Shown here: one piece after another, positions 1 through 18,789 of the stretch
How positions within the stretch are numbered: the stretch's first letter is position 1
How the letters are laid out: each line of letters begins with the position of its first letter
DNA from: Candidatus Muproteobacteria bacterium RBG_16_65_34
GTDB taxonomy: Bacteria; Pseudomonadota; Gammaproteobacteria; Acidiferrobacterales; Sulfurifustaceae
Direction: 5' to 3'
Assembly (NCBI GenBank): GCA_001785115.1
Contig: MFSU01000076.1
Coordinates: 1-60,621 of the forward strand
DNA: 60,621 nucleotides
Notes under the pieces: generated by a model
Database searches by the model: none
What the model saw: only the letters and a program-made list of their open reading frames with translations
Told to the model about the DNA's origin: nothing
Position numbers and translations under genes: made by a program

Positions 1-54
1 TCCATTCCCTTTATCTACGGTTGGGAGTTCGACGATGAAAAGTAGGGGAAACAT
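1..54 (-). CDS. 5' end of an unidentified CDS running off the window; its start overlaps the upstream stop (TGATG)
   Basis: Reverse-strand ATG at 54-52, then MFPLLFIVELPTVDKGNG..., open to position 1. Overlaps the stop of 54..464 by 1 nt. Confidence 0.3.
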   Translation of the reverse strand, partial: MFPLLFIVELPTVDKGNG

Positions 55-464
55 CAGGGGTCTCCCTCTGTAACTATGGCGAACCCACTTTCCCTTATCA
101 GCAGATCCATTCCACCGAAGTGAAGCTGTGCCTCAAGGGTCTTGCATGTTTCAGGGGGTGATAGAGTCCCAATGAAAGTGAAGCATGACCATCTCCATGC
201 GACGAAGGACCCAAGAACCCAACCGCGTACTTGCTTAGAAAAAACCTCGTAATACTTTTGATGATCTGGTGGTTCTTCCTTTTCGGCTAGGACGGTCACG
301 CGTGTTCCATGTGAGATTTGCCCAATTGCATTGCCACTCTTGGGTAGCGGGCCAGAGCGCTGCCAAACATTCACTTGTGGAACAACTACTTCGCCATACG
401 CGAGGGAATCTTGCGAAGTCTCTCGGCCATTAATCCAGGCGATTGTGGGATGCTGATTTGACAT
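54..464 (-). CDS. Hypothetical protein with a bacterial SH3-like segment
   Basis: 136-aa ORF. VNVWQRSGPLPKSGNAIGQISHGTRVTVL...VRGWVLGSFV resembles the SH3b pattern. Lies in the cassette array. Confidence 0.5.
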   Translation of the reverse strand: MSNQHPTIAWINGRETSQDSLAYGEVVVPQVNVWQRSGPLPKSGNAIGQISHGTRVTVLAEKEEPPDHQKYYEVFSKQVRGWVLGSFVAWRWSCFTFIGTLSPPETCKTLEAQLHFGGMDLLIRESGFAIVTEGDP

Positions 465-476
465 CGTTATACTGAT

Positions 477-528
477 CTTGAACCTAGGCGCGCCGTCTTT
501 GCGCGTTCGGTGGAACGAATGGTTAGCC
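477..528 (-). other. Short, degenerate attC-like site downstream of the Shedu-like gene
   Basis: In gene orientation it reads GGCTAAC...GCGC-aaagacg-GCGC...G|TTCAAG. GGCTAAC is complementary to the TTAGCC at the cassette start (1941-1946). It is only about 52 nt long and folds poorly. Confidence 0.35.
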
Positions 529-533
529 CTCGT

Positions 534-1925
534 CTATGGGACACGGGGGTAGTAGATCTGCGTGTCGCCGCCCGTGTCCCAAATTGGACCTAGTAGGTTC
601 TCGAAGACAGCTTTCGCGTTTTCATACACGTCGTCGTAAGTCATGATCCGTAGCTTCGGACTTTCGTTTGTCATGGTTTGTAGCTTGCGACGATCATTCG
701 GCAATAGTGACTGTGAACGACCGATGACAAGCAATCCGTTCGGATTGGGGGTTATGCCGGTGAGGCCAAGTTCTCGTTGCACAGTTTGCAGGTTGTCTTC
801 CAAGTACCGCTTCCAATCGATGATTTGACCGTGCGCACGTGTGAGATCGGCCGTGGGATGCCCGTCTTGGCGGAATAATGGTAAGTTTGAGCGCTCAAGC
901 TCCACGAGCACATAGTCCTGGGTGGCATCACGAAACACAAAATCTGTGACTTTGGCGCCGAGTGGTAGCTTGGGCCACATTCTGACGTGCGTTGGGCACA
1001 GGAGCACTGGGTTGTCCTGCAAGAAAGCCTGCAAGGCTTGCTCGCGTTCAGGATTCGAGTCAAGCAGAGCCTTGAACGCAGCCAGGAGCGTTGCGTATTG
1101 GCGACGAGCAGACGCTCGGGGGTCGAGCGTGCTCAACTGAGCGTCCTGTGTATGTGCAATCAGTGCGGCGCCGAGTACGTCATGCTCCGCCCACAGAGGA
1201 GCAAAATCAGCGTTCCACATTTCAGGCTTGAATCCAGGGAATACCTCGATGCATTCCCATCCAGCCATAAGGCGGATCGTAGAACGCGCAACAAACGGCT
1301 GGTTGGGTGTATCGGCTCTTGCTTCGGCGACTAGTTCCCCATGGATTTCAAGATCCAAGTGATTTCGCACAGATAAAAGGCAATAGGGTTTCGCGCCGGG
1401 CAGTTCGTCTTGCTGTAGCGAAAGGGGCTTCACCTGAAACCAGATGCGCGTCGCCACTATGTCCCGTGACGTTCCTTGTGAAGGAGAATGCACAGACAGT
1501 TTGAGCTCCACACCGAAGTTTGCATTCTGAGGATGAGGCAATTCGGGAGACTCAATGTGTACGAGATTCTGGGACAACAGTGCTGCGGCCTCCGCAATGC
1601 CTTGCGGCATGACGGTTACGACCAACTTTCGTTCGGCAAGTGTCTTCTTCTCATATCGAATAACGACTCCGTCAGTACAGATGGCAATCAGCAGATGCCC
1701 AGGGTTCGCCATGTACTCGGGAATCTTGTCGCGCAGGTGCGCATACTTTCCGTTGGCCAAGGTTTCGGTGGTCTTGATGTAGCTCTTAACAGAGGATGAA
1801 ACGGCGTCTGCAGTTGCTTCTTGCTCCGGCGTCCATGGTTCAGACGGCCCTTCGTTCAACTCAACAAACGCCATCGGATTGGAGCCCTCGAGTTTGAGCT
1901 GCCCCTTCTTGCGATCACGTGTCAT
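534..1925 (-). CDS. sduA: Shedu-like anti-phage nuclease: C-terminal DUF4263 (PD-(D/E)xK-type) domain with an unrecognised ~290-aa N-terminal region
   Basis: C-terminal ~170 aa follow the remembered DUF4263 pattern: EREQALQAFLQDNPVLL...VTDFVFRD...YVLVELERS...AHGQIIDWKRYL...GLLVIGRS...LRIMTYDDVYENA. Confidence 0.65.
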   Translation of the reverse strand: MTRDRKKGQLKLEGSNPMAFVELNEGPSEPWTPEQEATADAVSSSVKSYIKTTETLANGKYAHLRDKIPEYMANPGHLLIAICTDGVVIRYEKKTLAERKLVVTVMPQGIAEAAALLSQNLVHIESPELPHPQNANFGVELKLSVHSPSQGTSRDIVATRIWFQVKPLSLQQDELPGAKPYCLLSVRNHLDLEIHGELVAEARADTPNQPFVARSTIRLMAGWECIEVFPGFKPEMWNADFAPLWAEHDVLGAALIAHTQDAQLSTLDPRASARRQYATLLAAFKALLDSNPEREQALQAFLQDNPVLLCPTHVRMWPKLPLGAKVTDFVFRDATQDYVLVELERSNLPLFRQDGHPTADLTRAHGQIIDWKRYLEDNLQTVQRELGLTGITPNPNGLLVIGRSQSLLPNDRRKLQTMTNESPKLRIMTYDDVYENAKAVFENLLGPIWDTGGDTQIYYPRVP

Positions 1926-1940
1926 GTTGTGTCCCTCGAG

Positions 1941-2031
1941 GGCTAACGGTCCGGATGTGCGGCGCCGGCCAATGAAGTGTCAGGAAACACAGTGCGCTGT
2001 CCCCGGCGTCCGCACGAGCCGGGAGTTAGGT
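1941..2031 (-). other. attC-like recombination site (membrane-protein cassette)
   Basis: In gene orientation: ACCTAAC (overlaps the TAA stop) ... G|TTAGCC, 91 nt. The arms pair in three blocks (CCGG, GTGCGG, CGCCGG) with bulged bases. Confidence 0.6.
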
Positions 2032-2868
2032 TGGCTTTGTATATGAGGCACCCAGCGCCATAAGTGCCTCAAGAGAAAATCGCCTATAGAACTTTACAAA
2101 CGCCATAAACGTTACGTACGAGACCAATATACTTAGCGTCAGAAGCGCCACACTTTGTATTCCCGTAAAGGTCCCTCGCACAGCATGCCAGATAAGGCCC
2201 CAGAAAATGACCACTACCAGTAATGTGAGAGTACGCAAGAAGCCGTAGAGTGCAACGTAGTTTTGCATTTTTGGCAAATGATTTGGCGCATTCTCGACTG
2301 TGTAATGGTAGGCATACCGAAAATAGTCGTGCTCATCCGCGGTACCATATTCCGACGGCTTTTTGATGTTCGCATGTTCGATTACCAGCTTGTGTAATTT
2401 GTTTTTGAGTATGGCAATAAGAAGCGGGTCGAGCTTCTTCGCGTAGAGATCACGCAACCCTGCTTTTTCACCCAATAGCCAATCCATGGCTACTATCGGT
2501 GTAAGTAAAATAGCCACGATTGTTCTCATGACAATACGTATTCCGCGTTTTTCTCGAATTTCGAAGTAGCCATCAGGTGAAAGGTCGAGCAAATACTTCG
2601 ATGGGTAGCCGAACGCCCAAATTGAGTACCGCTCGACAGTAATGGATGACAGAAAGCTCAAAAGATGTCCGGTCGCATAGGCAACCAAGATGAACGGGAT
2701 ATAAACCTCGGGGGTTTTAGAACTCAGGGTGGCTGTGATGTAGCCCAGCACTGTTATGTCGGGCTGTGCATGTGCATATGCGGCCATCAACCCATACAGA
2801 AAAAGCGCACCAGGTGTGAAGTATCCTAAAAAATCGTATAGCGAAAAGGGATTCTGCTTAAGATCCAT
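2026..2868 (-). CDS. Hypothetical multi-pass membrane protein (cassette-borne)
   Basis: 280-aa ORF with several long hydrophobic stretches (for example FTPGALFLYGLMAAYA, IPFILVAYATGHLLSFL, LTLLVVVIFWGLIW). No family recognised. Confidence 0.55.
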   Translation of the reverse strand: MDLKQNPFSLYDFLGYFTPGALFLYGLMAAYAHAQPDITVLGYITATLSSKTPEVYIPFILVAYATGHLLSFLSSITVERYSIWAFGYPSKYLLDLSPDGYFEIREKRGIRIVMRTIVAILLTPIVAMDWLLGEKAGLRDLYAKKLDPLLIAILKNKLHKLVIEHANIKKPSEYGTADEHDYFRYAYHYTVENAPNHLPKMQNYVALYGFLRTLTLLVVVIFWGLIWHAVRGTFTGIQSVALLTLSILVSYVTFMAFVKFYRRFSLEALMALGASYTKPT

Positions 2869-2897
2869 CTGGGCGCTCCCTGATTGTTTTGTTGAAA

Positions 2898-2984
2898 ACC
2901 TAACGCCGTTTTAACCGGCGCGGGCCGCGAAAGTAAAACAATGCGCCGTCGTAACACCGTGTCCGGTTGAAAACATAGTTATGT
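2898..2984 (-). other. attC-like recombination site (PIN cassette)
   Basis: In gene orientation: ACATAAC (overlaps the TAA stop) ... G|TTAGGT, 87 nt. GTTTTCAACCGG pairs with CCGGTTAAAAC, leaving one bulged C. Confidence 0.6.
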
Positions 2985-3413
2985 TTGCTGCCAGTAAAGC
3001 ACATTGCAACCGTTGTTCTTAGCCACCTTGTGAAGGTGGTAGTCGGCCGTCAAGAGGGTATATCCGTTGTTGATCGCGATCTCCGCAATAAGCGCATCCA
3101 TGGTGTTATTGCGCTTTTCCCCATTCAACTGATTGAGCTCATTTCTCAACCTTTCGAAGAGATCGCCGTCACTCAGTTTTCCGTGGCCGATTCGAGATAC
3201 GCCAATTACAAAGGTTTCGGTAGGCACAACTTCTTCCACAGTGGTCGCGAACATTAGGAAAAGTTGTGCTCTTTTTTCCTCATCCTTGGTTCGATTCAAC
3301 TCGTCGATCTGAATATGCGACGCGACGAACTCGCCATCGGTGGGCAACTGATCAGGCGCGAGCACGCCATCAACCAATTTGTTCAAAATGCATGTATCGA
3401 CAACGTATTTCAT
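2979..3413 (-). CDS. PIN-domain protein (VapC-like toxin fold), with no adjacent antitoxin ORF
   Basis: Internal start MKYVVDTCILNKL (cat at 3411-3413). The acidic DT motif at the N-terminus and the ~144-aa size are typical of PIN domains. The longer 214-aa ORF-track version has an Arg-rich, implausible extension. Confidence 0.55.
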   Translation of the reverse strand: MKYVVDTCILNKLVDGVLAPDQLPTDGEFVASHIQIDELNRTKDEEKRAQLFLMFATTVEEVVPTETFVIGVSRIGHGKLSDGDLFERLRNELNQLNGEKRNNTMDALIAEIAINNGYTLLTADYHLHKVAKNNGCNVLYWQQT

Positions 3414-3660
3414 TGGCAAACATAACGACGATTCGACGGCCCATTGACCGATATCACCGAGGCGGCGCGAAGGCGGGAAGAGAAAGTCTGGAAGAATCAC
3501 ATCCTTGGCGCCGCACTGCCGGTACCCGGTCGGGAAATATACTGCAACTCTGCGGTATAACATACGCCGGGCGGGTGGATGGGCCGTGTAGCGCTGATAT
3601 CGGTGAGAACGGGAAGACCGCATTTTGGCGGCGGATCAAAGGGTTGGTGCGCTAAGGGGC

Positions 3661-3728
3661 GAGGACTGAGGACTGAGGGCTGAGGACTCAGAGGTTCACC
3701 GTTCACGGATCACGAATCACGAGTCACG
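3661..3728. repeat. Two abutting tandem heptamer arrays: GAGGACT x4 (3661-3688) and NNTCACG x5 (3694-3728)
   Basis: Direct reading: gaggact gaggact gagggct gaggact, then gttcacc gttcacg gatcacg aatcacg agtcacg. Confidence 0.9.
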
Positions 3729-14159: not shown

Positions 14160-14453
14160 ATGAAGCGTGATGAGGTCATGAAAGTCCTTTCCGGGCACCG
14201 CGACGCATTGCACGAGCGGTTCGGCGTGAAATCGCTCGCGCTATTTGGTTCGGTGGCGCGCGATGAGGCAAGCGACACAAGCGATGTGGATCTGCTCGTG
14301 GAATTCGACCGCCCGACCGGTCTTTTCGGCCTTATTCAGTTGCAGCAGCATCTGGAGGCGTTGCTGAGTTGCAAGGTGGATGTCGGCACGGCGGCGGGAC
14401 TCAGGCCGCGCATACGCGAACGGGTGCTCCAAGAGGCGCTGCGTGTCGCCTAG
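14160..14453 (+). CDS. mntA: MNT-type nucleotidyltransferase antitoxin
   Basis: 97 aa with LFGSVARDEASDTSDVDLLVEF (GSxxRxxxxxxSDxD). Confidence 0.85.
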   Translation: MKRDEVMKVLSGHRDALHERFGVKSLALFGSVARDEASDTSDVDLLVEFDRPTGLFGLIQLQQHLEALLSCKVDVGTAAGLRPRIRERVLQEALRVA

Positions 14454-14787
14454 AAAGTGGCCGCGTCGCATCGAGGATATTCTCGATGCCGTGGAGGAGC
14501 TCCAATCGTTTGTGCGGGGACTCACTTACGGTGAGTTTTGCACCGATGCGAAAACCATCAAGGCAGTCGCTGCTGACCTGGCAATCATCGGCGAAGCCGC
14601 TGGGCACATTCCGGAGGACATCGTGTCTGCACACCCCGATATCCCTTGGCCGCTCATGAAAGCCATGCGCAACCGCATCGTGCACGTGTACTTTGATGTC
14701 GATCCCAGGATTATCTGGGACACCATTCAGCAAGATCTGCCTCCGCTGATCGAGCCGCTCAGGAAACTGCTGGAGGAAAACCGCTGA
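14443..14787 (+). CDS. hepT: HEPN-domain (DUF86) toxin
   Basis: GTG at 14443 overlaps the mntA stop by 11 nt. Rx4H motif RNRIVH. The ORF-track start at 14380 would overlap mntA by 74 nt. Confidence 0.8.
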   Translation: MSPRKWPRRIEDILDAVEELQSFVRGLTYGEFCTDAKTIKAVAADLAIIGEAAGHIPEDIVSAHPDIPWPLMKAMRNRIVHVYFDVDPRIIWDTIQQDLPPLIEPLRKLLEENR

Positions 14788-14843
14788 CTCCGGCTGCCGG
14801 TGCGGCGTATCTTGCGCGCGCGGGCGAGGAGCCCCAGAGGGAG

Positions 14844-16529
14844 GTGCAGCGGCGTACCGTGGAACGAGGTCTGCCCTCCGGGGCGGAGAAATTCATCCGG
14901 CCACGACCAAGGGGGAACCACTTACTTGACGTAAGCCACCGCTACAACGAACTAAGAAGGCTCACCGCCTACGACGACGGCGCCACCGCCGCCAGCTACG
15001 CCTACGATAACCTCCAGCGCAAGACCGAGGAGCGCCTAAACTACGGCCCCTTTGCCTTGAGCTACGCCTACAGCTACTACGCAAACGGCCAAAAGAAAAC
15101 CGTCACCGGCCCCGATGCCGTAAGCTACGCTTACACCTACGACCCGAACAACCAGCTCGCGAGCATCCAGCTCCCCGCGGGCAGCATCACCGTCAACGCC
15201 TACACCTGGACCGCCCCGGAGCGAATCACCCTCCCGGGCGGCACCACCCGCAGCCGCCAATACGACCCCCTGATGCGCTTAACCGCCCTCACCGCCAAGG
15301 ACGCCTTCCAGAATAGCCTCTTGAGCTACCAGTACGCCTATGACCGGGCCGGCAACATCACCCGAAAGGCCACCGAACACGGGACCTATGACTACGGCTA
15401 CGACCGCCTCTACCGCCTCAAGACCGCCGCCAACCCAGGCCCGCTGTCCCAGGAGGCCTACGGCTACGATGCCCTCGGCAACCGCACCACCGACAGCAAT
15501 CTCCCCGGCCCCTGGAGCTACGATGAAAACAACGCGCTCCGCGTCGCGGGCGCCGTTGCCTACGACTACGATGCAAACGGCAACGCCATAAAGAAAACCG
15601 CAGGCGCCCAAACGATGAGCCTCGGCTACGACACCAGCGACCGTCTGACCGAGGTGAAGGACGCCCAGGGCAACACCATCGGCCGCTACGCCTACGACCC
15701 CTTTGGGAGAAGGCTCTGGAAGGAAACCAACAACACCAGGACCTGGTTCTTCTACGCAGACGAAGGCCTGATCGGCGAATACGACTCAAGCGGTGCTGAG
15801 ACCAGGGCCTACGGCTACCAACCAGACTCAACCTGGGGCACCGATCCGCTCTTGCTCAAGCAAGGGAAGAACTACTACTTCTACCAGAACGATCATCTGG
15901 GGACGCCGCAGAAGCTCACCGACACTCAGGGTAATGTCGTTTGGAGTGCGAGGGCGCAGGCTTTTGGAGAGACTACGGTTGATGCCGGCTCCACGGTTAC
16001 GAACAACTTACGGTTTGCGGGCCAGTATTACGATGGGGAGAGTGGGTTGTACTATAACGGCGCGAGGTACTACGACCCGAAGCTCGGCAGATACACCAGT
16101 CACGACGGACTCAGTGTTGCGCGACACGTTCGACGCTGGCAAGCAACCCTCGGTATGCCAGGTCAACTACCGCTGGAGATCAACCCCTACGCGTATGTTG
16201 CGAACAACCCATTAAGGTGGATTGATCCGACTGGTACTAACATTTTTGGTTACTGCGGTTCGGGGCCGAGTCGATACGTCCTAGTTGATGGAAGGTTTGC
16301 TGCCGCCTGTGAAAATCATGATCGTTGCTATCTCCAGTGTCGTGCCAACAAGAGCAAGTGCGATCAGACCTTCTGGAATGAGATGAATGCGGTCTGCGAT
16401 CAGATGCCAACAGGCCGAGATAAAGAGTTATGTTATTTGCGCGCTGAAAATTTTTTTACCGCTGTAGTTTGGTTCGGAGATGGGGAATTTCAGGAAGCCC
16501 AAGCAGCGGCAGATTGCTGCAAAAGATGA
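14844..16529 (+). CDS. 5'-truncated RHS/YD-repeat protein carrying a C-terminal phospholipase-A2-like toxin domain (16239-16526)
   Basis: Many YD repeats (YAYDxxGN, YDYGYDRLYRL). RHS core end: RFAGQYYDGESGLYYNGARYYDPKLGRYTS...NNPLRWIDPTGT. The tail has CENHDRCY...CDQTFWNEMNAVC...AENFFTAVVWFG. No N-terminal or secretion domain; only ~465 aa of shell. Confidence 0.75.
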   Translation: MQRRTVERGLPSGAEKFIRPRPRGNHLLDVSHRYNELRRLTAYDDGATAASYAYDNLQRKTEERLNYGPFALSYAYSYYANGQKKTVTGPDAVSYAYTYDPNNQLASIQLPAGSITVNAYTWTAPERITLPGGTTRSRQYDPLMRLTALTAKDAFQNSLLSYQYAYDRAGNITRKATEHGTYDYGYDRLYRLKTAANPGPLSQEAYGYDALGNRTTDSNLPGPWSYDENNALRVAGAVAYDYDANGNAIKKTAGAQTMSLGYDTSDRLTEVKDAQGNTIGRYAYDPFGRRLWKETNNTRTWFFYADEGLIGEYDSSGAETRAYGYQPDSTWGTDPLLLKQGKNYYFYQNDHLGTPQKLTDTQGNVVWSARAQAFGETTVDAGSTVTNNLRFAGQYYDGESGLYYNGARYYDPKLGRYTSHDGLSVARHVRRWQATLGMPGQLPLEINPYAYVANNPLRWIDPTGTNIFGYCGSGPSRYVLVDGRFAAACENHDRCYLQCRANKSKCDQTFWNEMNAVCDQMPTGRDKELCYLRAENFFTAVVWFGDGEFQEAQAAADCCKR

Positions 16530-16562
16530 GGCTGTTCCAGGCGCCGCACTTGATAGAATGGT

Positions 16563-16949
16563 TTGCCGAGGTTACAAATGGAAATTTCAGAGGAGATTAT
16601 TTTTGCGCTGCTGATGTCATACGCAGTTGTGATAGCTGTTGTCTGCCACTTTCTAACTAAAAACTACTTATTCGCAAGCACCGCGGCATCAGTTTTTGTA
16701 CCATTGAGTGTTCAGATAGGCGATTACGTTATTCGTGGCTATATGGACCCGTTCGCTATTTTTGCCTTTCCAGCCGCAGTCTTGTACTGCTTTTTCCTTG
16801 CTCTAGTTGTTGGGATACCTTTTGCAATTATTAGAAAATGGAGAGGCGAGAGAATACTTTTCCCGATATATCGCACGAAACAGGGGGAAGATTTGTTGCC
16901 GAAAACTGCCAGGCGAAAGAAATCCAAAAGAAAAGACGGAAAAAGGTGA
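16563..16949 (+). CDS. Small membrane protein, putative cognate immunity protein
   Basis: 128 aa, AT-rich. About 3 hydrophobic helices and a Lys-rich tail. Lies directly downstream of the RHS toxin tip. Start uncertain (16563 or 16578). Confidence 0.5.
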   Translation: MPRLQMEISEEIIFALLMSYAVVIAVVCHFLTKNYLFASTAASVFVPLSVQIGDYVIRGYMDPFAIFAFPAAVLYCFFLALVVGIPFAIIRKWRGERILFPIYRTKQGEDLLPKTARRKKSKRKDGKR

Positions 16950-17066
16950 TCGCGGTAGGAACGCTCATCGCTGAACGCCCCCCGCACAGATCCGAACGGG
17001 CCCGATTCGGGCATTCGGCTCCCACCTTGTAACGAATAGGGGACGGAGGGATTAAAGATTAGACAG

Positions 17067-17206
17067 GGAAAAAGGTGACAGATTTATTTTCTAGAAAGCA
17101 AACAGGAAAGCAAGCAAAGATATTCTCCCAATGCCACGGGAAAAATGCGCGACCATGAATCATGAATGAGCAGTGGAGGACGTAGGACAGTTAACGGCGA
17201 ACGAAC
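17067..17206. repeat. 140-bp direct repeat, copy 1 (138/140 identical to 18808-18947)
   Basis: Direct alignment; the mismatches are at gcgcgAcc/gcgcgGcc and gacgTagg/gacgCagg. Confidence 0.9.
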
Positions 17207-17272
17207 AGCGAATAGGGGACGGAGGGATTAAAGATTAGGCAGTGATTCCAAAAGCGAGAAAAGGGGTCGGAG

Positions 17273-18789
17273 TCGAATGGCACTTACTTAAGCCCCAACC
17301 CCCTGATGTGATGTAAGAAGGGCTGGCCCAAGAAGTGATAAGGTGGAGTCGCCAAACAACCATCCATCACCGTAAGGAGCCAGCCCCTCCATGCATCCTA
17401 ATCCCCGCGTGCGCGCGCAGCAACAGAGCCGAGTTCGTCGCCGTGCCGAGCAGAGCGATGCCTATGCCTTCTTCAACCTCCTGACGAGTCCCGAGCTGCT
17501 CGATCGGGTGGAATCGCTATTGCCCTCGCACCGGGAGCGGCTCTTTCCCCCGACCGAGACGCTCTCGATGTTCCTCTCCCAGGCCTTGAGCGCCGATCGC
17601 TCCTGCCAGCGGGCGGTGAACGAGGCGGCGGTCAAGCGCCTCGCCGCGGGCCTGCCGCGGGTGAGCACGCACACCGGCGCCTACTGCCGCGCCCGGGCGA
17701 GACTGCCGGAGGCGATGTTATCGGGCCTTATGCAGCACACCGGGCGGAGGATAAGCGCCCAAGCGCCGAGCGCGTGGCGCTGGCGCGGCCACCCGGTGCG
17801 GCTCGTGGATGGTGCCACGGTGGCGATGCCCGACACCCCGGAGAACCAGGCGCTCTATCCGCAGCCGCGCAGCCAGGCGCCGGGGCTCGGGTTTCCGCTG
17901 TGCCGGCTGGTGGGGTTGATCTGTCTTGGCAGCGGCGCCGTGCTCGACGCCGCCCTCGGCGGCTGTCTCGGGCCAGGCAGCGATGAACAGACGCTCCTGC
18001 GAACCCTGCTCGATGCGCTTGAGTCCGGCGACCTGCTGCTCGGGGATGCCTATTACGCGAGCTATTTCCTGCTCTGCGATCTGCAGGCGCGCGGCGTGGA
18101 GGCGGTGTTCGAGCAACAGGGGGCCCGCAAACGCAGCACCGACTTTCGCCGCGGTCAAAGGCTCGGGGCACGCGATCACCTGATCGAGCTGCGCAAGCCC
18201 AAACTCAGGCCCGACTGGATGACCCCCGCCCAGTATGCCCGTGCACCCGAGACCCTGACGGTGCGGGAGCTCGCAACCGGTGGCAAGATTCTCGTGACCA
18301 CACTCCTGTGCCCGAGGCAGACCCCCAAGGCCGCGCTGAAGGCGCTGTATCGCAGCCGCTGGCACGTGGAACTTGATCTGCGCCACATCAAGACGACCCT
18401 CGGCATGGAGATGTTGAGTTGCAAGACACCCGGGATGGCGCAAAAGGAGATCTGGGCTTATCTGCTGGCCTACAACCTCATCCGGTTGATGATGGCCCAG
18501 TCCGCGACACTCGCCGAATGCAGCCCACGCGCCTTGAGCTTCAAACACACGCTCCAGCTCTGGATCGCCTGGGACCATCACGGGCCCGGCAGCGACGACG
18601 ATGAAAAGCTCTATGGCCTATTCGTGCTGATCGCCGAACAGCGCGTGGGCAACCGCCCCGGACGCATTGAGCCCCGGGCCATCAAGCGACGACCGAAACC
18701 TTATCCGCTGCTCACCAAACCACGGGCGCTCGCGAGGGAGGAAATCCGCAGGCATGGGCATCCGCGGAAGGTTAAGTAAGTGCCATTCG
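17273..18789 (+). mobile_element. IS4-family insertion sequence (~1.5 kb)
   Basis: 18-bp terminal inverted repeats CGAATGGCACTTACTTAA (17273-17290; reverse complement at 18772-18789). Flanks are GGTCGGAGT and GGTCGGGAGT, a possible imperfect target duplication. Confidence 0.8.
17391..18779 (+). CDS. IS4-family DDE transposase
   Basis: 462 aa. YRSRWHVELDLRHIK matches the Y-(2)-R-(3)-E-(6)-K signature. Confidence 0.85.
   Translation: MHPNPRVRAQQQSRVRRRAEQSDAYAFFNLLTSPELLDRVESLLPSHRERLFPPTETLSMFLSQALSADRSCQRAVNEAAVKRLAAGLPRVSTHTGAYCRARARLPEAMLSGLMQHTGRRISAQAPSAWRWRGHPVRLVDGATVAMPDTPENQALYPQPRSQAPGLGFPLCRLVGLICLGSGAVLDAALGGCLGPGSDEQTLLRTLLDALESGDLLLGDAYYASYFLLCDLQARGVEAVFEQQGARKRSTDFRRGQRLGARDHLIELRKPKLRPDWMTPAQYARAPETLTVRELATGGKILVTTLLCPRQTPKAALKALYRSRWHVELDLRHIKTTLGMEMLSCKTPGMAQKEIWAYLLAYNLIRLMMAQSATLAECSPRALSFKHTLQLWIAWDHHGPGSDDDEKLYGLFVLIAEQRVGNRPGRIEPRAIKRRPKPYPLLTKPRALAREEIRRHGHPRKVK

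What the first reader, a model, noticed from the sequence alone, without database searches (positions are those of the whole stretch)
534..1925. Shedu-like DUF4263 nuclease as an integron cassette, with an unrecognised N-terminal half and a possible non-canonical catalytic motif
The C-terminal ~170 aa follow the DUF4263/SduA pattern: ...FLQDNPVLL..., TDFVF, VLVELERS, QIIDWKRYL, LLVIGRS and IMTYDDV. The first ~290 aa match nothing I recognise. Shedu N-terminal sensor domains are known to vary, so this could be a new variant.

At the spot where I remember the family having hydrophobic-E-x-K, this protein reads V-E-L-E-R, so Glu may occupy the lysine position. That would mean either a different catalytic geometry or an inactive copy.

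It is a single-gene cassette, which fits the size limits of integron-borne defence genes.
Basis: inference. Interest (0 to 1): 0.7.

Follow-up and report, generated by a model that had tools for sequence, protein, structure and literature searches.

The report
Shedu nuclease gene on integron cassette
This is an intact anti-phage Shedu-type nuclease gene carried on a mobile integron gene cassette; it is a fairly ordinary case, except that it belongs to a large, untested branch of the family in which a normally essential catalytic lysine is replaced by glutamate, and its front half has no known structural relative.

Summary
It matches Pfam SduA_C/DUF4263 (76 bits, cut-off 27) and PADLOC SduA (96 bits). 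Its predicted C-terminal fold is closest to the Bacillus cereus Shedu nuclease.

Glu344 does sit where the canonical motif III lysine sits. It is not a private oddity or a decayed copy. The same column is Glu in 140 of the 150 nearest 50%-identity cluster representatives, Lys in 1 and a gap in 9, across several protein architectures.

Residues 1-240 model confidently but have no Pfam, PADLOC, PDB or viral-structure match. They are nevertheless conserved in over 100 full-length homologs from more than 10 phyla, some already named Shedu by NCBI.

The gene lies in a 1,464-bp single-ORF cassette (483..1946). The cassette is bounded by its own complementary core sites (GTTAGCC / GGCTAAC) in a low-GC array of attC hairpins. 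No integrase was found in the window, so the array is CALIN-like as far as it can be seen. A 47%-identical homolog is the third cassette of a complete integron in a Desulfobacterales MAG.

Shedu genes in integrons are already published. Verdict: a real but mostly known kind of element, of moderate interest.

The parts
534..1925 (-). SduA-like ORF: 463 aa, ATG at 1925-1923, TAG stop at 536-534
   Evidence: ORF list. Pfam SduA_C 76.4 bits. PADLOC SduA 96.2 bits. The identical protein is found on 13 metagenome contigs.
1221..1925 (-). N-terminal domain, residues 1-235: alpha/beta, with no recognisable relatives; the presumed sensor/regulatory domain
   Evidence: AF2 model of residues 1-240 has pLDDT 85.8 and pTM 0.83. 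Best Foldseek hit in PDB has E 0.25 and in BFVD E 0.22. No Pfam or PADLOC coverage. Conserved positions include Y49, R90, E92, S118-Q119 and W223-C225-I226-E227.
1056..1202 (-). Helical linker, residues 242-290: two long helices joining the N-domain to the nuclease domain
   Evidence: DSSP on the AF2 model gives helices 242-267 and 271-289. hhalign finds residues 217-260 to be the only N-terminal stretch shared with the ~350-aa sister clade (probability 93.7%).
627..1046 (-). DUF4263 / PD-(D/E)xK nuclease domain, residues 294-433
   Evidence: Pfam envelope. Foldseek best hit is 8ti9, the B. cereus Shedu nuclease domain (E 1.2e-6, prob 1.0), followed by EndoMS/NucS.
891..905 (-). Motif III, V-E-L-E-R: E342 at 900-902, E344 at 894-896 (the canonical lysine position), R345 at 891-893
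   Evidence: Read directly from the sequence. Alignment to B. cereus LIEIK. The column is Glu in 140, Lys in 1 and a gap in 9 of 150 representatives.
483..1946 (-). The gene cassette, 1,464 bp: from TTAGCC (the last six bases of the upstream R' core) to the G of the downstream R' core GTTCAAG
   Evidence: Coordinates verified. Nucleotide homology to the 93%-identical copy in an Acidiferrobacterales MAG spans only window 1948..529, that is from the GTTAGCC core to just past the stop codon. GTTAGCC is kept upstream of the ATG in copies from other taxa.
1941..2031 (-). attC of the preceding (280-aa) cassette: R'' ACCTAAC (2031-2025, containing that ORF's TAA stop) through R' GTTAGCC (1947-1941). 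The G|TT junction is the 5' boundary of the SduA cassette
   Evidence: Hairpin of -23 to -25 kcal/mol with R and L boxes and bulges on the 5' half. Folding of the enclosing intergenic region 1926-2045 gives z -2.4 / -2.8 against shuffles.
477..528 (-). Short, atypical attC of the SduA cassette: R'' GGCTAAC (528-522) through R' GTTCAAG (483-477)
   Evidence: R'' is the exact complement of the cassette's own 5' core GTTAGCC. The central GAACGCGCAAAGACNGCGCGCC is shared with another attC of the same array seen in L001. The fold is weak: folding of the enclosing intergenic region 465-540 gives z about -1.
2898..2984 (-). attC of the PIN-like cassette: R'' ACATAAC through R' GTTAGGT. Its junction is the 5' boundary of the 280-aa cassette
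   Evidence: Canonical fold with a bulged C in the 5' L box. The PIN-like cassette starts at GTTATGT (3426-3420), the complement of ACATAAC. The 280-aa cassette starts with GTTAGGT and ends with ACCTAAC.
1..3653 (-). Low-GC cassette array (GC 0.515 against 0.652 for the adjacent chromosome), cut off by the contig end at position 1
   Evidence: Composition. Co-oriented small ORFs are separated by attC sites. The flank beyond is DUF3307, prmB-like methyltransferase and mdh.

Best explanation
ORF 534..1925 encodes a type 1 Shedu (SduA) anti-phage nuclease with three parts. Residues 1-235 form a structurally orphan alpha/beta N-terminal domain. Residues 242-290 form a two-helix linker. Residues 294-433 form a C-terminal DUF4263 PD-(D/E)xK nuclease domain.

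By analogy with B. cereus and E. coli Shedu (inference), the nuclease domains should assemble into a homotetramer that the N-terminal domain and linker keep inactive. When the N-domain senses an infection cue, the enzyme should cut or nick invading DNA.

The active site is a variant. Motif I is E295, motif II is D328, motif III is E342-x-E344 in place of E-x-K, and motif IV is Q367. I infer that it is catalytically competent and works like BamHI (D94/E111/E113), with the third carboxylate binding metal or activating water. Conserved K319 on the motif II loop and/or R403 may supply positive charge.

The gene sits alone on a 1,464-bp integron cassette with no sigma-70-like promoter match upstream of the gene. 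The cassette lies inside an array of attC sites inserted next to DUF3307-prmB-mdh. No integrase is visible, so the array is CALIN-like. The cassette could therefore be excised or shuffled by an IntI supplied in trans, and expression should depend on read-through from upstream.

Shown: family membership, fold, residue equivalence, clade-wide conservation, cassette boundaries, and a homolog in a complete integron. Inferred: oligomeric state, autoinhibition, nuclease activity with ExE, anti-phage function, and the nature of the signal sensed.
For: - Family scores: Pfam 76.4 bits and PADLOC 96.2 bits.
- Fold: the full-length AF2 model has pLDDT 82.8, and its nuclease domain matches 8ti9 (B. cereus Shedu) at E 1.2e-6, then EndoMS/NucS. 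Gu et al. report the same structural neighbours for Shedu.
- Residue equivalence: D328=D249, E342=E264, E344=K266 and Q367=Q295, from the profile-to-PDB alignment and from MAFFT. In the MAFFT alignment LVELERS lines up with B. cereus LIEIKTPS and with VEIKQ of the close homolog P0232.
- Conservation across 150 representatives at 50% identity (gaps make up the rest): E295 131, K319 128, D328 139, E342 141, E344 140 (plus 1 Lys), Q367 145, R403 144.
- Of the 20 genome loci, 17 match a combined D-F-h...h-E-[LI]-E-[RK] pattern at 40-93% identity; one full-length copy (L026), one other copy and a C-terminal fragment did not match it.
- ExE precedent: the BamHI active site is PD94-E111xE113 (PMC8845596).
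- Cassette: each of three consecutive cassettes begins with a 7-mer that is the exact complement of its own R'' (GTTATGT/ACATAAC, GTTAGGT/ACCTAAC, GTTAGCC/GGCTAAC).
- The attC hairpins carry bulged bases on the gene-sense 5' half. Further canonical attCs occur in the same array in L001.
- The array has GC 0.515 against 0.652 for the flank.
- No sigma-70-like site lies upstream of the gene.
- In the Desulfobacterales MAG locus L030 an IntI-like gene is followed by an attC array with the homolog as third cassette. The integrase is 57% identical to IntI1 over 150 aa (E 5e-48) and scores 81 bits on Pfam Phage_integrase.
- Shedu is reported as the second most frequent defence system in sedentary chromosomal integrons (bioRxiv 10.1101/2024.07.02.601686).
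Against: - The motif III lysine is essential in the characterised Shedu enzymes. EcSduA K285A abolishes cleavage and immunity, and VcSduA K557A abolishes defence. I found no tested ExE-type Shedu, so its activity is unproven.
- I could not inspect model coordinates, so the roles proposed for K319 and R403 are conjecture.
- The gene's own attC (477..528) is only 52 nt, lacks a clear L''/L' pair, and the enclosing region does not fold better than shuffles.
- No intI or attI was found in the window. That search used an IntI1 sequence recalled from memory.
- IntegronFinder's attC model was not available.
- Several homologs sit alone between housekeeping genes, not in arrays.
Confidence: 0.78

Rival explanations
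1. The protein is a catalytically dead Shedu-like pseudo-nuclease. It would act as a DNA-binding, regulatory or decoy protein, the loss of the motif III lysine having inactivated it.
For: The lysine is required in EcSduA (K285A) and VcSduA (K557A). No ExE-type Shedu was found to have been tested.
Against: Dead enzymes usually lose several catalytic residues and drift. Here E295, D328, E342, E344 and Q367 are near-invariant across 150 clusters at 50% identity and across several architectures. The replacement is always Glu, a metal-ligand-competent residue, as in active BamHI. Foldseek places the domain with active nucleases.
Confidence: 0.15
2. The locus is an ordinary genomic or defence island, not an integron array. 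On this view the intergenic palindromes are terminators or REP-like repeats.
For: No integrase was found in the 60.6-kb window. attC_A and the 3428-3612 repeats are non-canonical. A strict RYYYAAC...GTTRRRY regular-expression scan found no pairs.
Against: Terminators and REPs do not explain why each cassette's first 7 nt are the exact complement of the 7-mer at or just after its own stop codon, with a different 7-mer for each of three consecutive cassettes. They also do not explain the AAC...GTT ends, the bulges on the 5' half, or stop codons embedded in R''. Related copies keep GTTAGCC at the 5' boundary in other taxa. A homolog lies in a complete integron.
Confidence: 0.07

Closest known systems
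Bacillus cereus B4264 Shedu (SduA; PDB 8ti9/8tia; Gu et al., type 1A)
   Same: Both are single-gene systems with an N-terminal regulatory domain, a helical linker and a C-terminal DUF4263 PD-(D/E)xK domain. It is the best structural match (Foldseek E 1.2e-6). Motifs I, II and IV and the motif III glutamate align.
   Different: The motif III lysine (K266) is Glu344 here. The N-terminal domain is not sPC4/Whirly-like; no Whirly, PC4 or MRP hit appeared. Identity in the nuclease domain is only about 20%. Ile-Gly-Arg403 replaces Ala-Gly-Met in the aligned strand.
Escherichia coli SduA (Loeff et al., DNA-end-sensing nickase)
   Same: It has the same overall type I architecture, in which the N-domain restrains a nuclease domain that is toxic on its own.
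   Different: EcSduA uses E283/K285, and the lysine is essential. Its N-terminal clamp (residues 1-145, with Trp25) is shorter. The Foldseek PDB search with residues 1-240 returned no match to it or to anything else, though I did not verify that its structure is in the PDB copy searched.
ExE-type DUF4263 proteins of about 345-365 aa (nearest sister clade, e.g. P0206, P0212, P0214)
   Same: The nuclease domains are about 40% identical and share the same hhE[IL]E motif, K319, Q367, D370 and the G-R403 pair. They also share a short element at the junction of N-domain and linker (residues 217-260; hhalign probability 93.7%).
   Different: Their N-terminal regions are about 100 residues shorter. 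They are not detectably homologous to residues 1-216 of this protein.
BamHI restriction endonuclease active site (PD94-E111xE113)
   Same: It is a PD-(D/E)xK fold in which Glu occupies the usual lysine position and is catalytically required (PMC8845596).
   Different: It is an unrelated family, a sequence-specific type II enzyme with a partner methyltransferase. The resemblance concerns only the chemistry of the motif and is an analogy, not homology established here.
Integron-borne Shedu cassettes in sedentary chromosomal integrons (Darracq et al. 2024)
   Same: Both are single-gene Shedu systems carried on attC-bounded cassettes. That survey counts CALINs as integron elements.
   Different: Those were catalogued mainly in RefSeq genomes such as Vibrio. 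This one is in an uncultured high-GC bacterium, in an array with no visible integrase. I did not determine whether the published cases are of the ExE type.

Membership tests
Shedu / SduA (DUF4263, PF14082) | Significant match to the DUF4263/SduA_C profile above the curated threshold | tested here: met
   PF14082 gives 76.4 bits against a 27-bit cut-off, E 3.7e-21, over residues 294-433. PADLOC SduA PDLC00389 gives 96.2 bits.
Shedu / SduA (DUF4263, PF14082) | C-terminal domain adopts the Shedu-type PD-(D/E)xK fold | tested here: met
   The AF2 model (pLDDT 82.8) has 8ti9, the B. cereus Shedu nuclease domain, as its best PDB match (E 1.2e-6, prob 1.0), followed by EndoMS/NucS.
Shedu / SduA (DUF4263, PF14082) | Motif I Glu, motif II Asp, motif III Glu and motif IV Gln are present | tested here: met
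   E295, D328, E342 and Q367 are invariant in alignment A1 and align to B. cereus residues. The reference residues E204, D249, E264 and Q295 come from Gu et al..
Shedu / SduA (DUF4263, PF14082) | Motif III lysine (E-x-K; K266 in B. cereus, K285 in E. coli, K557 in V. cholerae) | tested here: not met
   Glu344 occupies this column. The column is Glu in 140, Lys in 1 and a gap in 9 of the 150 nearest representatives. The only other (D/E)xK triplet I found in the domain by reading its sequence is D370-W-K372, and K372 is not conserved.
Shedu / SduA (DUF4263, PF14082) | Type 1 architecture: N-terminal regulatory domain plus alpha-helical linker before DUF4263; a single-gene system | tested here: met
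   The AF2 model shows an N-domain (1-235), helices 242-267 and 271-289, and then the nuclease domain. The gene is alone in its cassette and stands alone between housekeeping genes in other genomes.
Shedu / SduA (DUF4263, PF14082) | Homotetramer formation, autoinhibition by the N-domain, and anti-phage protection | not testable with these tools
   These need biochemistry, cryo-EM and phage challenge.
Described Shedu N-terminal domain classes (Gu et al. types 1A-1G, 1X; domains N1-N59) | N-terminal domain belongs to one of the 79 catalogued clusters | not testable with these tools
   Supplementary Table S3 is not held. Indirectly, there is no Pfam hit, no PADLOC SduA model covers residues 1-260, and no PDB or BFVD fold matches.
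Integron gene cassette | The cassette starts with TTRRRY from an R' core and ends in an attC whose R'' (RYYYAAC) is complementary to that start | tested here: met
   GTTAGCC at 1947-1941 pairs with GGCTAAC at 528-522. The two upstream cassettes show the same with different 7-mers.
Integron gene cassette | The cassette's own attC has a canonical R''-L''...L'-R' hairpin with extrahelical bases and a length of about 57-141 nt | tested here: inconclusive
   attC_A (477-528) is 52 nt. It has AACC/GGTT pairing and a central stem but no clear L box, and the enclosing region 465-540 folds with z about -1. The neighbouring attCs at 1941-2031 and 2898-2984 are canonical.
Integron gene cassette | Lies in a co-oriented array of attC sites | tested here: met
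   At least three attCs lie in the window and more lie in the continuation of the same array on contig L001. All are on the gene-sense strand.
Complete integron | intI integrase with attI/Pc adjacent to the array | tested here: not met
   tblastn with IntI1 (sequence recalled from memory) finds nothing in the window or in L001-L016. The promoter-proximal flank is DUF3307/prmB/mdh. The array is therefore CALIN-like as far as visible, and it is truncated by the contig end.
Integron gene cassette | Members of the same gene family are found as cassettes in a complete integron | tested here: met
   In L030 an IntI-like gene (57% identical to IntI1 over 150 aa; Pfam Phage_integrase 81 bits) is followed by canonical attCs, with the SduA homolog as the third cassette.

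The most novel reading that the evidence does not exclude
The E-x-E branch of DUF4263, to which this gene belongs, would be a mechanistically distinct, lysine-independent class of Shedu nucleases. It would use BamHI-like chemistry, with K319 or R403 supplying the positive charge. This 463-aa family would couple that chemistry to a sensor domain with a new fold that recognises a cue different from the DNA ends sensed by EcSduA or the cue sensed by B. cereus Shedu. The family's spread across more than 10 phyla would be driven by integron cassette transfer.
Probability: 0.3. Interest if true: 0.55.

Novelty: new variant of a known kind. Interest (0 to 1): 0.4.

Why it matters
The three experimentally studied Shedu nucleases whose mutagenesis I read (B. 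cereus, E. coli, V. cholerae) carry the canonical E-x-K, and the lysine has been shown to be essential in the E. coli and V. cholerae enzymes. This gene shows that a large, strictly conserved branch of the family has Glu there instead: it is Glu in 140 of the 150 nearest cluster representatives, out of 696 with E <= 1e-10. Models of Shedu catalysis and regulation may therefore not transfer directly to a sizeable share of Shedu genes.

The 463-aa family also offers a confidently modelled sensor domain with no structural relative. It is also compact, a single ORF of 1.4 kb that has evidently moved between many phyla, which makes it an easy candidate for cloning and phage challenge.

The integron context itself adds little, because Shedu is already reported as one of the commonest defence cargoes of chromosomal integrons.

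Tried and rejected
- A single-sequence search of PDB sequences found no Shedu structure. A family profile was needed, and it gave only E 0.13. I therefore confirmed the residue equivalence with a multiple alignment and hmmalign counts.
- A strict regular expression for RYYYAAC...GTTRRRY pairs found nothing in L001. A home-made stem scorer recovered only 2 of about 8 attCs in the bona fide integron L030. Both were too insensitive and were dropped.
- I aligned eight L030 attCs to build a covariance model as an independent attC detector (A3). The variable central regions aligned too poorly, so no model was built.
- The inverted repeats at 3436-3459 / 3574-3604 upstream of the PIN-like cassette cross each other and do not nest, so I could not interpret them as a normal attC. 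Whether 3428-3653 is a gene-less cassette remains unresolved.
- I considered the opposite attC orientation, with genes antisense and intI off the left end. I rejected it because the bulged bases lie on the gene-sense 5' half, as in canonical top strands, and because ORF stop codons fall inside R''.
- My first hhalign of the N-terminus against the 'short' clade was contaminated by truncated members of the 463-aa family. I repeated it after removing them.
- The supplementary tables of Gu et al. could not be obtained.
- Foldseek against viral structures gave nothing for the N-domain.
- The host taxon could not be named, because cluster look-ups return no names for window proteins.
Full report
**1. 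The observation**

The window has a 463-codon ORF at 534..1925 on the minus strand.

Family searches confirm the DUF4263 assignment:
- Pfam SduA_C (PF14082) matches residues 294-433 at 76.4 bits against a 27-bit cut-off, E 3.7e-21.
- Twenty PADLOC SduA models match, the best being PDLC00389 at 96.2 bits. All hits begin at residue 261 or later.
- NCBIfam has nothing relevant.

So the C-terminal assignment is right, and residues 1-260 are not covered by any Pfam or PADLOC model.

**2. The protein family**

A search of 5.8 billion proteins returned 298 hits. The best 120 are nearly all full-length proteins of about 462 aa, 48-93% identical over the whole length. They come from Sulfuritalea, Nitrosomonadales, Syntrophales, Chthonomonadaceae and the cyanobacterium Limnothrix redekei. 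NCBI already names the last one 'Shedu immune nuclease family protein'.

A genome scan found 20 loci in Acidiferrobacterales, Nitrospira, anammox Planctomycetota, Chloroflexota, Acidobacteria, Desulfobacterales and others. The whole protein, including its N-terminal half, is therefore a conserved and widely transferred family, not a one-off fusion.

**3. Structure**

AlphaFold2 with a 25-sequence alignment gave a confident model with mean pLDDT 82.8. It shows:
- an alpha/beta N-domain, residues about 1-235;
- two long helices, 242-267 and 271-289;
- a C-terminal alpha/beta domain.

Foldseek against the PDB put the B. cereus Shedu nuclease domain first (8ti9, E 1.2e-6, prob 1.0), followed by EndoMS/NucS. 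Gu et al. describe the same structural neighbourhood for Shedu.

Residues 1-240 were modelled alone at pLDDT 85.8 and pTM 0.83. They have no significant match in the PDB (best E 0.25, TM <= 0.2) or among viral predicted structures.

A profile-profile comparison with the nearest sister clade (proteins of about 350 aa) finds only residues 217-260 in common (probability 93.7%). These form the last strand of the N-domain and the start of the linker. Residues 1-216 are thus specific to this family as far as sequence methods can see.

I could not check this domain against the 59 unnamed N-domains of Gu et al., because their tables are not held.

**4. The catalytic motif**

Gu et al. define the B. 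cereus Shedu motifs as I E204, II D249, III E264 and K266, and IV Q295. In E. coli SduA, alanine substitutions of E226, D269, E283, K285 and E314 abolish activity. In V. cholerae SduA, K557A abolishes defence.

Residue equivalence here rests on two alignments:
- A family profile aligned to 8ti9 places D328 on D249, E342 on E264 (an Ala mutant in that entry), E344 on K266 and Q367 on Q295. Statistical support is weak, E 0.13.
- A MAFFT alignment of the C-terminal domain with 13 representatives and the B. cereus fragment gives the same register. LVELERS lines up with LIEIKTPS. One close homolog, P0232, reads VEIKQ, with Lys in exactly that column.

The exhaustive representative search found 1,710 cluster representatives at E <= 1e-3 and 696 at E <= 1e-10. 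After aligning the best 150 to the family HMM, the motif III 'lysine' column is Glu in 140, Lys in 1 and a gap in 9. This holds across length classes: under 300, 300-399, 400-439, 440-500 and over 500 aa.

In the same set, with gaps making up the rest:

| Residue | Count of 150 |
|---|---|
| E295 | 131 |
| K319 | 128 |
| D328 | 139 |
| E342 | 141 |
| Q367 | 145 |
| D370 | 131 |
| R403 | 144 |

The residue after the second Glu varies (R, K, A, S, N, P, H), so it does not replace the lysine.

Of the 20 genome loci, 17 match a combined D-F-h...h-E-[LI]-E-[RK] pattern. The three that did not include one full-length copy (L026) and a short C-terminal fragment (L035).

Strict conservation of all the acidic residues argues against an inactive copy. 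BamHI is an active PD-(D/E)xK enzyme with PD94-E111xE113 (PMC8845596), which provides a precedent.

I infer a BamHI-like centre. K319 on the motif II loop and R403 are candidate sources of positive charge. I could not inspect model coordinates to test this.

**5. The integron question**

Composition and layout:
- The first 3.65 kb of the window has GC 0.515, against 0.652 for the adjacent DNA.
- It holds four co-oriented small ORFs: SH3-like, SduA, a 280-aa membrane protein and a PIN-like protein.

On the gene-sense strand the intergenic regions are attC-like:

| Site | Coordinates | R'' | R' |
|---|---|---|---|
| attC after the PIN-like ORF | 2984->2898 | ACATAAC | GTTAGGT |
| attC after the 280-aa ORF | 2031->1941 | ACCTAAC | GTTAGCC |
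| attC after the SduA ORF | 528->477 | GGCTAAC | GTTCAAG |

The first two fold into R/L-box hairpins of -16 and -23 kcal/mol, with bulged bases on the 5' half. The preceding ORF's TAA stop lies inside R''.

The decisive feature is that each cassette begins with the exact complement of its own R'':
- GTTATGT (3426-3420) with ACATAAC;
- GTTAGGT with ACCTAAC;
- GTTAGCC with GGCTAAC.

This is what excision and integration at G|TT predicts. Terminators or REP elements would not produce it.

The SduA cassette runs 1946->483, 1,464 bp, with a single ORF. Its own attC is short (52 nt) and lacks a clear L box. However, it shares its central GAACGCGCAAAGACNGCGCGCC with another, canonical attC further along the same array on metagenome contig L001.

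Comparisons with other copies support the boundaries:
- The 93%-identical copy in an Acidiferrobacterales MAG shares nucleotide similarity with the window only from 1948 to 529. That is from the GTTAGCC core to just past the stop codon.
- GTTAGCC or a close variant precedes the ATG in several other taxa.

No sigma-70-like promoter lies upstream of the gene.

No integron integrase was detected in the window or in the overlapping contigs, using tblastn with an IntI1 sequence recalled from memory. The promoter-proximal flank is DUF3307, a PrmB-like methyltransferase and malate dehydrogenase. The array is cut by the contig end at position 1, and the window is the whole contig. [quoted passage not shown]

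In the Desulfobacterales MAG locus L030, by contrast:
- An IntI-like gene is present, 57% identical to IntI1 over 150 aa (E 5e-48), scoring 81 bits on Pfam Phage_integrase.
- It is followed by a train of canonical attC sites.
- A 47%-identical SduA homolog is the third cassette.

In other genomes the homolog is a solitary insertion between housekeeping genes. This recalls cassette insertion at genomic attG sites (Loot et al. 2024, seen only as a citation); that link is my inference.

**6. Comparison with what is known**

Darracq et al. report Shedu as the second most frequent defence system in sedentary chromosomal integrons and count CALINs as integron elements. The cassette context is therefore already known.

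Both Shedu structure papers stress that N-terminal domains are highly diverse and mostly unclassified. An orphan N-domain is thus expected.

I found no discussion of the E-x-E variant in the Shedu papers I could read. The mutational work I read was done on E-x-K enzymes. I cannot exclude that the variant is noted in supplementary logos.

**7. Verdict**

The finding is real and correctly interpreted. It is a Shedu-family gene on an integron cassette in a CALIN-like array. It belongs to an untested E-x-E branch and carries a structurally orphan sensor domain. I rate it a new variant of a known kind, of moderate interest.

Noticed in passing
window 2026-2868 (-): The neighbouring cassette encodes a 280-aa predicted membrane protein with no Pfam match. 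It has a weak PADLOC hit to Csx27, the membrane protein associated with type VI-B CRISPR (27.5 bits, E 9e-7). It may be another defence-related cassette.
   Followed up: partly
window 2979-3413 (-), cassette 2904-3425: A PIN-like protein of about 144 aa (Pfam PIN, sub-threshold at 20-22 bits) sits on its own 522-bp cassette starting at GTTATGT. Gene callers extend it to 194-214 aa across the upstream repeat region, which is probably an over-call.
   Followed up: partly
window 3428-3653 and 3652-3691: Upstream of the first recognisable cassette lies a 226-bp stretch with crossing (non-nested) inverted repeats. It is preceded by CTCAGTC-type heptamer repeats. Contig L007 shares the sequence up to 3653, then has a 52-nt insertion and a different flank. 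I could not decide whether this is a gene-less cassette, a degenerate attC or an attI-like remnant.
   Followed up: partly
window 1-58 and 54-464 (-): The cassette after SduA encodes a 136-aa SH3-like protein here and in L008. In most other metagenome contigs the same ORF continues to 328 aa (SH3_3 plus DUF8168_C). The sequences diverge at window position ~58, so this is a strain-level rearrangement next to the contig end.
   Followed up: partly
window 16949-17023 (-): The only Rfam hit is to the group II intron domain V/VI model (RF00029, 42.9 bits against a gathering score of 40). It lies in a low-GC patch between an RHS toxin gene and an IS. No reverse-transcriptase ORF was identified next to it.
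   Followed up: no
window 14380-18779: This stretch holds a HepT-like ribonuclease toxin (14380-14787) and an RHS/YD-repeat protein with a phospholipase-A2-like tip (14844-16529). It also holds a DDE_Tnp_1 transposase (17391-18779). It looks like a second small variable island with toxin and mobile-element content.
   Followed up: no
L030 6738-9096: In the Desulfobacterales integron the intI-like gene is on the same strand as the cassettes and is split over three ORFs. The splits may be frameshifts from a long-read assembly or a pseudogene. The first cassette encodes a DUF4365 protein that hits PADLOC Argonaute-associated REase models at 60.6 bits.
   Followed up: partly
SduA residues C83, C182, C225, C310: Four cysteines are invariant or nearly so across the 463-aa family: three in the N-domain and one at the start of the nuclease domain.
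   Followed up: no
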